Below are positions 1,810-63,459 of a DNA stretch of 64,000 nt, piece by piece. Within the stretch, counting starts at the first letter, position 1, and each line of letters begins with the position of its first letter. The translations under genes and the position numbers were made by a program. Location: the NCBI GenBank assembly GCA_964016885.1, contig OZ024743.1, positions 89,280,001-89,344,000 of the forward strand, read 5' to 3'. This DNA comes from Eledone cirrhosa. Lineage: Eukaryota. The notes beneath the pieces are model-generated. The model had not been told where the DNA came from. It made no database searches and saw only the letters and a program-made list of their open reading frames with translations.

Positions 1810-2313
1810 ATAAACGTTTGGAGTTAGAAGGCCAAAACAATGCAGGTATGGATATAGAATATAAATACAAATGCAAAAGATATTGTTGACAATTAGTCTT
1901 TTACCTTAAATTTATTTGAATATCCTTAATTTTCAAGATAATATCTCTTCTTCAGAGGGAAGTAAAGGGGTTAATCCACACGCATGCTTACACCTTCACG
2001 TATTCTCCCACACACACTTAAACATACATGTCCAAACGCTTTTAAAGGGAGACAACCCTTTATCCACCTAACCTTCACTCTTTGACATTAGAAATAGAAT
2101 GGAATTTCTTTACTATTTCCTGTCAGCATGACTTGGCAAGCTAATTAGAACATTGGATTAACCCCTTTACTTTCCTCTGAAGAAGAGATATCATCTCAAA
2201 AATTAAGGATATTCAAATAAATTTAAGGTAAAAGACTAATTGTCAACAATATCTTTTGCATTTGTATTTATATTCTATATCCATACCTGCATTGTTTTGG
2301 CTCCAAACGTTTA
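1810..2313. mobile_element. Fold-back element with ~165-bp inverted arms, each carrying a minimal hammerhead motif
   Basis: 1810-1978 is the inverse of 2155-2313. The motif (T)CCT-CTGAAGA-A-GAGAT-nnn-ATCTY-GAA-AATT-A-AGGA lies at 1923-1960 (-) and 2172-2209 (+, GAAA mutated). The right arm runs into (TA)n. Confidence 0.72.
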
Positions 2314-3424
2314 TATATATATATATATATATATATATATATATATATATATATATATATATATATATATATATATATATATATATATATGTGTATATAT
2401 ATATATATGTAAATATATATATTTCGTTTCTGACCCTCCCAAAGTATAACAATAAATATATATATATATATATATATATATATATATATATATATATATA
2501 TATATATATGTATATATATATATATATATATATATATATATATATATTTATATATATATATATATATATATGTATATATATATATATATATATATGTGTA
2601 TATATATATATATGTATATATATATATATATATATATATATATATATATATATATATATATATATATATGTATATATATATATGTATATATATATATGTA
2701 TATATATATATACATATATATATGTATATATATATATGTATATATATATATACATATATATATATACATATATATATATATATATATATATACATATATA
2801 TATATATATATATACATATATATACATATATATATATATATATATATACATATATATACATATATATATATATATATATATACATATATATATATATATA
2901 TACATATATATACATATATACATATATATATATACATATATATACATATATACATATATATACATATATATATATATATATATACATATATATACATATA
3001 TATATATACATATATATATATATATATATACATATATATACATATATATATATATATACATATATATACATATATATATATATATATACATATATATATA
3101 TATATATATACATATATATACATATATATATATATATACATATATATACATATATATATATATACATGCATATATATATATATACATATATATACATATA
3201 TATATATATATACATGCATATATATGTATATACATATATATACATGCATATATATATATATACATATATATACATACATATATATATATATATATGCATA
3301 TATATACATACATATATATATATATATACATATATATATACATACATATATATACATATTTTATATATATATATATATATATATATATATATATATATAT
3401 ATATATATTTATATATATATATAT
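2311..3424. repeat. Long interrupted (TA)n microsatellite
   Basis: Directly visible. Similar tracts lie at 13450-14010, 14233-14880, 50530-51270, 52035-52265 and 60006-60113. Confidence 0.97.
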
Positions 3425-3613
3425 TTAATATAGAAATGGCTTCTACGGGACTAGAGCTGTTTCATACGGGAGAAACCATCAGGATGATGATTTCTCAAGA
3501 ATGAAACAGTTCTAGTCCTGTAGAAGCCATTTCAATATTAAATATTTATACACTGCTATGTATTGAGTACCTTACTTACCTTGGTTACCCCCGATTGAAC
3601 CCGGGATAAACTT
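3421..3613 (+). mobile_element. Fold-back family F2 (second, arm-less copy at 6316-6411)
   Basis: Inverted arms 3421-3479 / 3484-3545; TGATGA..GAAAC hammerhead-like core; tail ggttacccccgattgaacccg shared with 6316-6411. Confidence 0.68.
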
Positions 3614-3812
3614 TATATATATATATATATATATATATAATAAAATAGAAAATTTTCGCTCTACATGGCTGAATACAATAAATGTAATCTGAGTTTTTCG
3701 AATATTAATCATAACATTCGATTCGTTTGCAATTATGCAAACAAGCCTCAATTTTATAGCCATGTCAGGCGAATGAACACTTCATTCTTGCTCTTGTGTT
3801 GGCATGCGAACA

Positions 3813-3862
3813 GAACTACAGACACTAATGTTTCTGGATATTACCCTTCATCAGTACAGCTC
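3813..3862 (-). ncRNA. Type I hammerhead ribozyme motif
   Basis: Minus strand: GAGCTGTA-CTGATGA-a-GGGT-aat-ATCC-a-GAA-ACA-ttag-TGT-C-TGTAGTTC; 8-bp stem I with GU pairs, GUC triplet. Confidence 0.75.
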
Positions 3863-4200
3863 ACTGTTCACCTGCCAAACTGTCAGAGCTAGTGAAAATA
3901 TATGCTATTTTCAAAAATACACAGTGACTGATCGGCCTGATTTGCATATTAGCAGACTGGCTGATCAGTCAGATCTGCATATTAGCAGATCCACTGATCA
4001 GCCAGATTTGCATATCAGCAGACTGGCCTGTCAGTTTCCTGTATACGAGCGATAAATGGCTGCCTTGCCAAATTCAAATAAAAAAGAAAATTTTCGCTCT
4101 ACATGTAATCTGAGTTTTTCACAAGAGCAAGAATGAAGGGTTCATTATACTGACATGGTTATAAAATTGAGGCTTGTTTGCATAATTGCAAACGAATCGA

Positions 4201-60004: not shown

Positions 60005-60109
60005 TTATATATATATATATATATATATATATATATATATATATATATATATATATATATATATATATATATATATATATATATATATATATATATATAT
60101 ATATATATA

Positions 60110-60585
60110 TATACAGAAATGCCAATTTCTGTCTGTTTGTTTGTTTGTGAACCTAAAACTCAAAAACTACCAAACCGATCTTGATGAAACTTGACACGTG
60201 TGTCAGGTTCATGTCCATTTGATTTCTTACGCATATTTCATTTTAATCAAAGGGTTCCCCAGGGGCTCAAACACCCGCTGAAAATGTTTTCCCTTCGATT
60301 TATATGAAATTTAAACCATAGGTAAATGACAAGATATAATGCCTAATTTCAATAATATTAAGACATCCTAATGGGGGTACTATTTTTTTCCCTATAGCAA
60401 CATTTTTTCGCCTGACCAATGCAATCAACAATATTTGTTTTATTATTGTTTCGTAAATGAATTTGTCTTCGCTTTTGATTATCTGTCCTATATTTTGATT
60501 TCACTTTTGGTCTGAGAGGCATTGGGCATTTTAATGGGAACTGGGAATACACCCGCTTGCGGGTATTACCGGGTACCTCAGCTTG
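60110..60585 (+). mobile_element. Non-autonomous Helitron-like element (degenerate)
   Basis: 5' (TGTY)n tract and accgatcttgatgaaac motif similar to the 42128 element; 3' acccg..cgggt hairpin then CTTG (CTAG-like). Confidence 0.55.
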
Positions 60586-60639
60586 TATATATATATATAT
60601 ATATATATATATATATATATATATATATATATATATATA

Positions 60640-60992
60640 ATTGGTGTTGGATGCTTAAAGCGTCCGTATGCGGTAGGCCGTACGAGCACTCGATGCCCTC
60701 ATAGAGCAGAGTATGATATCACAGAAAAAAGAGAATCAGTGTTGCGACGAAAGGAATTTATTGGACATATTACAATTGTTTCTCGGGCGACCAGCTCCAG
60801 GCACGATCGATATGGTGATCAAACCTGACTCTGAAATCGCGCGGTCCTCGGATACGTCTCGATTCTACGAAGCAGATTTTCCTAAATCTGCTTCGTAGAA
60901 TCGATCGTGCCTGGAGCTGGTCGCCCGAGAAACAATTGTAATATGTCCAATAAATTCATTTCGTCGCAACACTGATTCTCTTTTTTCTGTGA
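60640..60992 (-). mobile_element. Fold-back element with ~95-bp arms and a nested hairpin, between TA tracts
   Basis: 60716-60810 is the inverse of 60900-60995; inner hairpin 60859-60904; GAAAC-aatt-GTA half-hammerhead motif. Confidence 0.68.
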
Positions 60993-63266
60993 TATATATA
61001 TATATATATATATATATATATATATATATATATATATATATATATGTATGTGTGTGTGTGTGTGTGTGTGTGTGTGTGTGTGTGTGTGTGTGTGTGTGTG
61101 TGTGTGTGTGTGTGTGTGTGTGTGTGTGTGTATATATAATATGGCCATCGTACAAGCTGTTTTCCTTTCAGATACAGAAAATACATATCCTGTTCAAACT
61201 GCTTCTATTAAGTTTGGCATGATGAAAAGCAGGTTGGGAAGAGTGTAGTGGTATTTTAAAGAGGTACATATGCTTCGAAATAGGTAACAGCGTTGGGATA
61301 AGCAGAGAAATGCATTTGTAAATAAATTAAGCTCGTCAGAATATGTGACAGAATAATTAATCTTAGATTAAGACAGCAACAGTGATTTGTGCATATGCAC
61401 CACAATCAGGAATGACAGATGCACAAAAGACCACTTCTATTCAGCTGTCGTCGATCGAAATCACGGTCGCTTGATGAACATTTTATTACACCGTAGTTAG
61501 CGGGTAGGGCCACATTTGCTTATAATGGTGAGAGATGGGACGAGACGGAGGCAATGACAGTGGGAGTTTTGTTCCATTGTGTTCGGACCTGATGTATATG
61601 TATATATTTATTTACCGCATCACATATACAAACATATAAACTTCTAACCTAAATTAATATTTTCATTACAGATCCCATGTTTGGTTTAAGCTTATCTATG
61701 TTGGTTTCGAGACTACCTGTCAACGATAGCCAATTGCAGGTGGGGTGGTGTGGGGTGCTCATGTGATTGGTCCTGGACATAAGTAGATAGAGTGAAGGCA
61801 CGTGGCTTAATAGTTAGAGTATTCAGTTCAGGATCGGAAGGCCGTAGTTCAATTTGAGTTGGCACGTTGTGTCATTGCGCAAGATATTTTGTTTGACCTT
61901 GTTTCAATCCACTCAACTGGTAAAAAATAAGTTGTATTTGTAATTCAAGGACCAGTTTTGTCACACACCATATCAAACTGAATCTCTCTAGGGGGTACAT
62001 CTGTTTGTCGAATGCTCAGCCACTTTCATGTTAATTTCACGAGCAGGTTGTTCCGTTGTTTGTACAACTGGAATGCTTGTCGTCGGAACCAACGGAGGTC
62101 CAACACATAGATTAATACATATATATAATACATATGACATAATCTATCCAGTCATCCTTCACGGTTTTAAGCACATTTGATAAAGGAAATTGACGTTATT
62201 TCTTTGAGATAGCATGTTAGCCCTACTGTGCTTGCGCATGTGCACACCACTCTCTCTATATATAAGCATGTATATGTATGTATGTATGTATGTATGTATG
62301 TATGTATGTATGTATGTATGTATGTATGTATGTATGTATGTATGCATGTATGTATGTACGTATGTATGTATGTATGTACGTCAGGTCACCAGTTGGTGCT
62401 ACTGGTAACATGTATCCCAGTACAACCTGTCTCATGGTCGGGTCGTTGGCGACTAAACTGGCAACCCCACCAAGGTTTCTTGGTGAGGAGGGTAACTTTG
62501 GACATCCTGCAGGACTAAAAACAAAACCTGTCAAAGAGCAAAGGAGTTCTTAAGAGTCAATGGCCATCCAAAATCAGCGGGAGAGATGACCCCTTAGCCT
62601 TTGTCAAGGCAGAATTCTAGGAGAAGGAAAACTCTGGTATAACACCTGCAACCCTGATGGTATCCAATGATGTTGACTTGTTCTTCTTTTTGGTAAATAT
62701 CATCTTGGTTAAGAGAGTGGGACTGGCTTTGTGCAGTGTCTTTGCTCACTATAAAAGGTTCACGGCACAGGCATTGCTTTATATCTGCAGATTTCTCTGC
62801 ACTTGTCGTCACATGGTACCATGGGTCCAGCACTATGTGTCAATAATTGTCACAAGTGTAGTGTTTGTACCAGAGTTTTCAAGTCGCTGGCTGGACTAAA
62901 AAGTCACACTCGTTCAGCGCATCGGTAGGGGTTCTCCTACATGGATATAAAGTAGTGGCGTACTCGAAAACGAGTTGGCATCCACCATGTACGTGTGCGT
63001 GTATGTATGTACATGTTTGTATGTATGTACGTTTATATGTATGTATGTACGTGTGTGTACGTACGTACGTATCTATGTATGTATATATGTATGCATGCAT
63101 GCATGTATGTATCTATGTACGTACGTATGTATGTACATATGTATTTATGTATGTATGTACGTACGTGTGTATGTACATATGAATGCATGTACGTATGTAT
63201 GTACGTATGTACGTACACACACACACACACACACACACACACACACACACTCACATATATATATAT

Positions 63267-63459
63267 AACGAAGGAATTGTGGTAAGGAACTAGATGGACC
63301 ATAACGCAACAGAGTACTCAATACTTAGGGTAGTAGAGTGGGTAATAGGAAAAGGTTTGACCCCGACGGCCGAGCTCAAGCCGTTTCGACGGCTATTTCT
63401 GGACTCAGAAATAGCCGTCGAAACGGCTTGAGCTCTGCCGTCGGGGTCATACCTTTTCC
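63267..63459 (-). mobile_element. Fold-back family F1, copy 6
   Basis: Reverse-oriented; arms meet at gacggctatttct-ggactc-agaaatagccgtc. Confidence 0.82.

What the first reader, a model, noticed from the sequence alone, without database searches (positions are those of the whole stretch)
1810..63459. A zoo of small hammerhead-ribozyme-bearing, (TA)n-targeting non-coding retroelements
Seen: more than 20 short (60-770 bp) non-coding inserts from roughly ten unrelated families sit in or against (TA)n tracts. Many carry recognisable type I hammerhead motifs (CTGANGA-stem II-GAAA-short or palindromic stem III-NUH-stem I), e.g. 1923-1960, 3813-3862, 5754-5798, 47173-47257, 47892-47927 and 59736-59788. 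Others carry partial ones. They show terminal direct repeats, inverted arms, or both. Known: minimal type I hammerheads occur in Penelope pseudo-LTRs and in metazoan non-LTR retrozymes, and Penelope insertions often have an inverted 5' segment. Inference: a diverse population of non-autonomous Penelope-dependent retrozyme-like elements is colonising, and possibly lengthening, the TA microsatellites of this genome. Standard masking would hide them as low-complexity gaps.
Basis: partly seen in the sequence, partly recalled or inferred. Interest (0 to 1): 0.85.

Follow-up and report, generated by a model that had tools for sequence, protein, structure and literature searches.

The report
Penelope stumps and retrozymes in TA
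The TA repeats here hold about 25 short inserts, many with hammerhead ribozyme motifs; 11 are cut-off ends of protein-coding Penelope-like jumping genes, several are non-coding repeats likely copied by the same enzymes, and their paired ends suggest that both broken DNA ends likely start copying at two marked points on the RNA.

Summary
The zoo is real but is not one class of non-coding retrozymes. I count 25 inserts from 15 families. Hammerheads are far above chance (33 vs 0.8 in 600 kb) and element ends abut (TA)n (41 of 46; SINE control 3 of 51). Of the six cited motifs one is perfect, one has an A·A mismatch, three are decayed copies of families that keep the core, and one is mostly degenerate family-wide. 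Eleven inserts are 5'-truncated 3' ends of coding Penelope-like elements (PLEs), six of a Hydra-clade family with a U3·A8 hammerhead. Three are tandem-unit retrozymes, one young, in arrays of a 467-bp unit. All classes end at two fixed sites, A and B; inverted insertions carry one of each (16 of 18 in an unselected set). A covarying bulged hairpin follows A, and in the Hydra parent also B. Cleavage and expression are untested. The classes are in print; the A+B rule and hairpins were not found in my paper searches. This scan reported the same picture on other DNA of this genome.

The parts
1770..2311 (-). Family P1: 5'-truncated 3' end of a coding PLE; tail-less inverted arm ending at site A is 177 nt longer at its 5' side than the arm with the 42-nt tail; hammerhead-like motifs 1923-1960 (-) and about 2172-2210 (+)
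   Evidence: (87% to the 3' UTR behind an 892-aa RT+GIY-YIG frame)
2419..2455 (+). Fragment of the family K end (site A)
   Evidence: read directly against 39340-39365
3424..3612 (+). Family C hairpin plus 69-nt tail; hammerhead 3484-3528 lacking its 5' stem I arm; full element about 440 nt, no coding link found
3640..4410 (-). Family D, about 436-nt unit with inverted pieces, interrupted by a SINE (4201-4381); hammerhead 3813-3862
5264..5360 (+). Family E fragment with partial hammerhead 5297-5328
   Evidence: homologues carry the whole motif
5463..6092 (-). Family F retrozyme, 1.35 units of a 467-nt tandem repeat; perfect type I hammerhead 5754-5798
6093..6258 (+). Hairpin plus tail, family G; anatomy only, no homologue in held DNA
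6315..6411 (+). Family C fragment
37535..39365 (.). Family K: coding PLE remnant with thumb and GIY-YIG region and a 540-bp inverted copy; hammerhead about 39131-39180 (+)
39405..39523 (+). Family E hairpin plus tail
40237..40441 (+). Family A (Hydra-clade PLE end), hairpin plus 78-nt tail, 3' half of hammerhead
41246..41321 (-). Family H tail fragment
42993..43262 (+). Family R, repeat whose homologues end in a P1-like tail; half core at 43185; least certain member
43290..43478 (-). Family A hairpin plus tail
46945..47306 (.). Family H, inverted arms plus tail; decayed hammerhead 47173-47257 (+)
47780..47958 (+). Family I, old short element; minimal hammerhead 47892-47927 with G8 changed
48368..48512 (.). 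Family L, hammerhead-like remnant between TA runs; no homologue in held DNA
48586..48642 (+). Family A single arm ending at site A
51269..51450 (+). Family A hairpin plus tail; tail hairpin 51379-51404
52266..52580 (+). Family M hairpin plus 66-nt tail; U3·A8 hammerhead core at 52356-52366 (-) and 52411-52421 (+); end of a coding PLE
53661..53852 (+). Family A hairpin plus tail; tail hairpin 53782-53807
59162..59345 (+). Family K extreme end as hairpin plus 59-nt tail
59583..60004 (-). Family J, 1.3 units of a 325-330-nt unit; hammerhead 59736-59788, damaged here, canonical in the family
60639..60991 (-). Family N hairpin plus 77-nt tail; only a GAAA-palindrome half motif; tail hairpin 60686-60712
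63268..63459 (-). Family A hairpin plus tail; tail hairpin 63314-63339

Best explanation
The inserts are a mix of truncated ends of protein-coding Penelope-like elements and short non-coding hammerhead repeats, all likely pasted into (TA)n by PLE proteins that would cut both strands and prime copying from each DNA end at two fixed points of the RNA. Shown: coding parents for P1, K, A and M; tandem units for F, D and J; two fixed 3' ends (A and B, 33-78 nt apart); one A end and one B end per inverted insertion; variable 5' truncation; (TA)n at the ends; a bulged hairpin about 6 nt past A in families A, C, E, H, N and past B in the Hydra parent. Inferred: one DNA end primes at A and the other at B, the two truncated cDNAs are joined head to head, giving inverted arm plus one-sided tail; in Hydra-type RNAs the two hairpins position the enzyme; non-coding families borrow the protein in trans; long arrays come from circular or multimeric RNA. 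The hammerhead likely processes precursor RNA but inserted copies run through the cleavage site, so the template was uncleaved or re-ligated.
For: Coding links: (RVT_1 E 5.9e-14, GIY-YIG E 1.1e-6). Ends in TA: 41 of 46 vs SINE 3 of 51, background 3.8%. End rule: 16 AB, 1 AA, 1 BB among 29 family-C loci picked by an internal pattern, p 6.6e-4; 5 of 5 complete inverted family-F insertions; 78 AB, 2 BB, 1 AA over eight families, partly pre-selected. Both arms from one template: 52 variants shared by both arms in 41 family-A copies vs 9.2 (max 23) on permutation. Neither arm contains the other at window 1770-2311 and L273, against fold-back. Hairpin: 24 in 664 kb vs 2.05 shuffled; 140 distinct instances, upper stem changes on both sides among families; second hairpin past B in 9 of 10 long-frame Hydra loci. 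In vitro, a PLE protein cuts and extends both strands from two RNA sites (PMC11167929).
Against: No cleavage, RNA or protein-binding data. The hairpin is absent from the tails of P1, K, M, D and not seen in F, which also show two ends, so it cannot be the general signal. 29 of 110 pairs could not be classed. Arm sharing in family C was not beyond permutation (10 vs mean 4.4, max 10; 8 pairs). The site-A window for family C was reset after one search had classed only 4 pairs as AB. PMC11167929 saw no difference in start site between strands. Which PLE moves F, D, J, C was not identified. Pfam found nothing in the Hydra frame; its endonuclease is read from motifs.
Confidence: 0.75

Rival explanations
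1. All the inserts are non-autonomous, non-coding retrozymes that replicate through self-cleaved circular RNAs.
For: F forms arrays of a 467-bp unit, 40 of 40 scored hits 100% identical, folds at z -11.6; D and J have more-than-unit copies; C has a shared 5' end abutting TA in 12 of 20 long copies.
Against: 11 of 25 inserts continue upstream into RT/endonuclease frames in other copies; P1 mostly has a broken core.
Confidence: 0.08
2. Same elements, but the inverted arm is made by self-priming (fold-back, or priming on an antisense template as proposed in PMC3846280) rather than by priming from both DNA ends.
For: Most family-A junctions are near-perfect palindromes (45 of 51 arms of similar reach); both arms share variants, which fold-back also predicts.
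Against: Cases where the tail-less arm reaches further 5' than the tailed arm (12 of 78 AB pairs by 15 nt or more; window 1770-2311; L273) cannot be copied from the other arm; later deletion could explain some.
Confidence: 0.15
3. The hairpin-plus-tail inserts are DNA transposons (MITE- or Helentron-like) or chance structures in AT-rich DNA.
For: Fixed-looking 195-bp form in the 40 best family-A hits; two TA-flanked inserts do end in a Helitron-like hairpin (label recalled).
Against: Unselected copies have variable centres; family A is the pLTR of an RT element; motif counts exceed shuffles about 40-fold.
Confidence: 0.02

Closest known systems
Hydra clade of C-terminal-EN Penelope-like elements (Craig et al. 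2021, PMC8557442; section 11 and passages read)
   Same: DKT, RWK-like, CxCx5C linker, no GxKF, hammerhead in the pLTR, insertion into (TA)n, inverted 5'-truncated copy and tail (family A).
   Different: Tail is 78 nt, not 30-40; core is U3·A8 with a long stem II and 5-bp stem III; twin hairpins before the ORF are not mentioned in what I read (supplements not seen).
Minimal hammerheads of metazoan PLEs (Cervera & de la Pena 2014, PMC4209133; parts 1-2 of 4 read)
   Same: Extra base after A9, palindromic stem III, U3·A8 variant, opposite-strand pairs 100-700 bp apart read as truncated PLEs.
   Different: Families A and C have 4-5 bp stem III and could fold as monomers; C, D, E have a mismatch at the base of stem II.
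Animal non-LTR retrozymes (Cervera & de la Pena 2020, PMC7229834, part 2 of 6 read; Li et al. 2026, 10.64898/2026.07.22.740005, part 1 of 5 and passages read)
   Same: Non-coding tandem units with type I hammerhead, low GC, highly folded monomer, arrays of tens of units (family F; D and J in part).
   Different: Here the arrays carry the PLE insertion footprint (two 3' ends, inverted arm, TA target); 467 nt is just above the 150-450 range given; RNA not shown.
Poseidon PAc of the green anole (Frangieh et al. 2024, PMC11167929; parts 1-2 of 4 read)
   Same: Both strands cut in AT-rich DNA, two internal RT start sites bounding the tail, uncleaved RNA used as template; in P1 the tail holds the ORF's first codons.
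   Different: They report no strand difference in start site and one AC-rich stem-loop; here the two ends are complementary and, in the Hydra family, each is followed by its own hairpin.

Membership tests
EN+ Penelope-like elements (families P1, K, A, M) | Single ORF with RT and C-terminal GIY-YIG | tested here: met
   P1 parent: 892-aa frame, RVT_1 and GIY-YIG. K: YVDD and YIG motifs in broken copies. A: 786-829-aa frames with YRDD and YIG, no Pfam hit. M: one weak endonuclease match, E 2.5e-5.
EN+ Penelope-like elements (families P1, K, A, M) | pLTR in partial tandem or inverted, 5' truncation, one-sided tail | tested here: met
EN+ Penelope-like elements (families P1, K, A, M) | Hammerhead motif in the pLTR | tested here: met
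   A: U3·A8 core, folds as a three-way junction; K 17 of 21; P1 mostly degenerate, 6 of 24
Hydra clade (family A) | DKT for DKG, RWK motif, no GxKF/Y, CxCx5C linker | tested here: met
   DKT 10 of 10, RWR in place of RWK 8 of 10, GxKF/Y 0 of 10, CxCx5C 9 of 10
Hydra clade (family A) | Insertion into (TA)n | tested here: met
Hydra clade (family A) | Placement in an RT tree with reference Hydra elements | not tested
   no reference sequences were fetched
Non-LTR retrozymes (family F; D, J) | Non-coding tandem units of a few hundred bases, each with a type I hammerhead | tested here: met
   F: 467-bp arrays, 25 of 25 intact. D 436 nt and J 325-330 nt: more-than-unit copies, two cores one unit apart in only 1 of 25 and 2 of 22 loci
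Non-LTR retrozymes (family F; D, J) | Self-cleavage in vitro | not testable with these tools
   sequence only; one compensatory change in stem II of F in another organism's contigs
Non-LTR retrozymes (family F; D, J) | Expressed as linear and circular RNA | tested here: inconclusive
   no RNA holder listed
Type-SGC permuted hammerheads (PMC10085705) | Blocks in the order S, G, C | tested here: not met
   0 in the window, 0 in the 600-kb sample
Naiad clade | N-terminal endonuclease, no canonical hammerhead | tested here: not met
   endonuclease is C-terminal in P1, K and A

The most novel reading that the evidence does not exclude
Penelope-like proteins integrate by priming from both ends of a cut in (TA)n, one at each of two RNA start sites; in Hydra-type elements a pair of bulged hairpins 78 nt apart sets those sites, and unrelated non-coding hammerhead RNAs, including circular retrozymes, spread by carrying such a two-site cassette. 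This would explain the inverted arm, the one-sided tail and retrozyme mobility at once.
Probability: 0.45. Interest if true: 0.75.

Novelty: new member of a known kind. Interest (0 to 1): 0.52.

Why it matters
How PLEs make inverted, one-tailed insertions, and whether they move retrozymes, are open questions in the papers read. This genome offers long open frames of two PLE clades, an identical-copy retrozyme, a countable A+B end rule and a candidate RNA signal, so both questions can be tested with the published in vitro system. For annotation, a rough order of 10^5 hammerhead motifs (33 per 600 kb, unevenly spread) sit in TA tracts, and hairpin-shaped ones are easily misfiled as MITEs or miRNA precursors.

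Tried and rejected
Rfam at gathering score: nothing; at E-value level the listed rows were mostly miRNA models matching microsatellites. The repeat finder was swamped by TA. My first reading of family A as a ribozyme-free, fixed-length non-autonomous element was dropped when longer copies showed a U3·A8 hammerhead and an ORF; a pattern search for a CUGANGA core upstream of A gave 4 hits that look like neighbouring insertions. A DNA search with the upstream part of A returned nothing, which shows nothing. No coding link for C: tblastn of seven PLE peptides on 30 + 20 loci gave no same-element hit; for H and I shared sequence stops within about 200 nt upstream for H, and the copies of I shown differ upstream. 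Families G and L and six other TA-flanked stretches (47390, 49950, 50793, 53123, 53346, 58591) had no homologue in held DNA. RNA: no RNA holder listed; contigs cannot show cleavage. Permuted hammerheads: none above chance. TA lengthening: inconclusive. Sequence look-up in earlier findings: nothing.
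Full report
Setting. The window lies at C4:89,280,001-89,344,000 of a 3.0-Gb genome, AT-rich and full of microsatellites. Its repeats look like those of octopuses; that label is recalled and comes from no call.

Are the motifs real? Rfam gave nothing at gathering score and one hammerhead row among the 150 of 400 rows listed at E-value level (HH9, 5738-5809, E 6.1e-6). 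A strict type I descriptor found only 5754-5798. The other five cited motifs are present but imperfect in the window copy. I therefore aligned the 22-25 best genome copies of each family; these are biased towards the window copy. Full core plus cleavage triplet, window copy left out: F 25 of 25, D 23 of 24, J 19 of 21, K 17 of 21, H 9 of 21, I 8 of 21, P1 6 of 24. J, I and H return to canonical minimal hammerheads with palindromic stem III; D keeps an A·A mismatch at the base of stem II; P1 reads CCGAAGA in 13 of 24 with a 3-bp stem I and is probably vestigial. In 60 evenly spaced 10-kb stretches a relaxed descriptor gave 33 hits against 0.8 +/- 0.8 in local dinucleotide shuffles; stem I sequences differ between families and still pair. 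26 of 33 lie within 200 bp of (TA)6, against 14.0 expected from each stretch's own background, never reached in 200,000 draws; the hits fall in 18 of 60 stretches. Element 3' ends in the sample are followed by (TA)4 within 30 nt in 41 of 46 cases, SINE ends in 3 of 51, random positions in 3.8%.

What the inserts are. Class 1, ends of coding PLEs (11 inserts). P1 and K copies extend upstream by variable lengths into RT and GIY-YIG sequence; an 892-aa frame with RVT_1 and GIY-YIG is followed by a 3' UTR 87% like P1 and preceded by its inverted copy. K itself holds endonuclease sequence in the window, and the hairpin at 59162 and the fragment at 2419 are its extreme end. Family A, six copies in the window, first looked like a fixed 195-bp ribozyme-free element. 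Copies found through tail read-through extend into a long 3' UTR and coding sequence. Ten loci with 786-829-aa frames all carry A downstream, eight also whole upstream, and show the Hydra-clade motifs (PMC8557442 section 11). Their pLTR has a type I hammerhead with a U3·A8 core, 5-bp stems I and III and a GUC site, which is the minimum-energy fold of one copy though not unusually stable (z -0.67); window stubs keep only its 3' half. M follows an endonuclease end in one locus (weak). Class 2, tandem-unit non-coding repeats (3 inserts): F, 467 nt, 40 of 40 scored hits 100% identical, one array spanning about 25 kb, monomer folding at z -11.6, held by four organisms, with a T-A to A-T change in stem II in one of them; D about 436 nt and J 325-330 nt. 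Class 3, short with no coding link found (11 inserts): C, about 440 nt with a shared 5' end abutting TA in 12 of 20 long copies; E, H, I, N, R; G and L by anatomy alone.

How they insert. Every family examined has two fixed 3' ends, A and B, 33-78 nt apart. Head-to-head pairs over eight families: 78 AB, 2 BB, 1 AA, 29 unclassed of 110 (F arrays and self loci dropped; up to 29 family-A pairs and the P1 pairs were pre-selected by queries holding the tail). Unselected test: 29 family-C loci picked by an internal pattern (one tandem duplicate dropped) gave 16 AB, 1 AA, 1 BB, 3 partly classed and 8 without inverted arm, p 6.6e-4; the site-A window was reset, where alignments ran on into the TA and only 4 pairs were classed AB. 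F arrays obey the rule in 5 of 5 complete inverted insertions. The two arms of family-A copies share 52 non-majority bases against 9.2 (max 23) on permutation (41 pairs); family C was not beyond permutation (8 pairs). At window 1770-2311 the tail-less arm reaches 177 nt further 5' than the tailed arm, and in L273 neither arm contains the other, so one arm was not copied from the other unless later deletion intervened. The simplest reading, inferred, is priming from both cut DNA ends on one kind of RNA, one at A and one at B. It fits the in vitro finding that a PLE protein cuts and extends both strands from two RNA sites that bound the tail and uses uncleaved RNA (PMC11167929), although that paper saw no strand difference. 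The rival in print is self-priming on an antisense template (PMC3846280, passages).

A candidate signal. About 6 nt past site A, families A, C, E, H, N and several others carry a bulged hairpin with a constant outer frame and an inner stem that changes on both sides: 24 instances in 664 kb against 2.05 in shuffles, 22 followed by TA within 120 nt; 140 distinct instances and at least seven stem types in 1.66 Mb of held DNA, 78 of them from family A. I found this before looking it up. Earlier notes of this scan added the lead of a second hairpin; I confirmed it 6 nt past site B in 9 of 10 Hydra loci, 78 nt after the first, upstream of the first ATG. P1, K, M, D and F lack it, so it is at most clade-specific. 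Its function is untested.

Comparison and novelty. Minimal hammerheads in PLEs, the U3·A8 variant and opposite-strand pairs as truncated PLEs are in PMC4209133; Hydra elements in (TA)n in PMC8557442; tandem retrozymes in PMC7229834 and their PLE origin in 10.64898/2026.07.22.740005. An octopus repeat annotation counts Penelope families and does not mention hammerheads (PMC13282606, passages). The A+B rule, the hairpin pair and the PLE footprint on retrozyme arrays were not found by searches; the library lacks most subscription papers, and I saw no supplements, where PMC8557442 lists Hydra sequences and hammerheads. Permuted type-SGC hammerheads (PMC10085705, passages), a lead, were not found here. 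The elements are new members of known kinds; the value lies in the testable insertion rule. The scan has reported this picture on other DNA of the same genome; those notes are not independent support.

Noticed in passing
window 16012-16135 and 16711-16768 (+): Two exons reading like the C-terminus of beta-tubulin (name recalled; last exon translated).
   Followed up: no
window 23950-37540 (-): Three decayed, head-to-tail LINE copies with AP endonuclease and RT matches.
   Followed up: partly
window 11042-12778: 86-bp satellite, 20 copies at 99% identity, without a hammerhead core.
   Followed up: no
window 4201-4381, 29537-29725, 44922-45108, 55165-55354, 57491-57684, 58050-58238: 181-bp SINE-like family, not TA-targeted; it sits at the same AT-rich spot inside family D in the window and in L082, L097, L103, L105.
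   Followed up: partly
window 42142-42930 and 60113-60585 (+): TA-flanked inserts ending in a GC-rich hairpin and CTAG/CTTG, Helitron-like by recall; no hammerhead family link.
   Followed up: partly
window 45322-46409 (-): Transposase-like remnant by recall; no Pfam match.
   Followed up: no
families C, D, E (3484, 3813, 5297): A mismatch (T·T, A·A, T·T) is kept at the base of stem II instead of the usual G-C pair.
   Followed up: partly
L214:2380 and 2975 (+), L247:3104 (-): Another U3·A8 hammerhead family, two copies 595 bp apart in L214.
   Followed up: no
window 4750-5113 and 39650-40197: TA-flanked repeats with 8 and 6 homologue hits in held DNA, not classified.
   Followed up: no
G000:C5:39860208-39885012 (L264, L265): Family F insertion of about 25 kb with a 758-nt inverted arm, B end left and A end right, both in TA.
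   Followed up: yes
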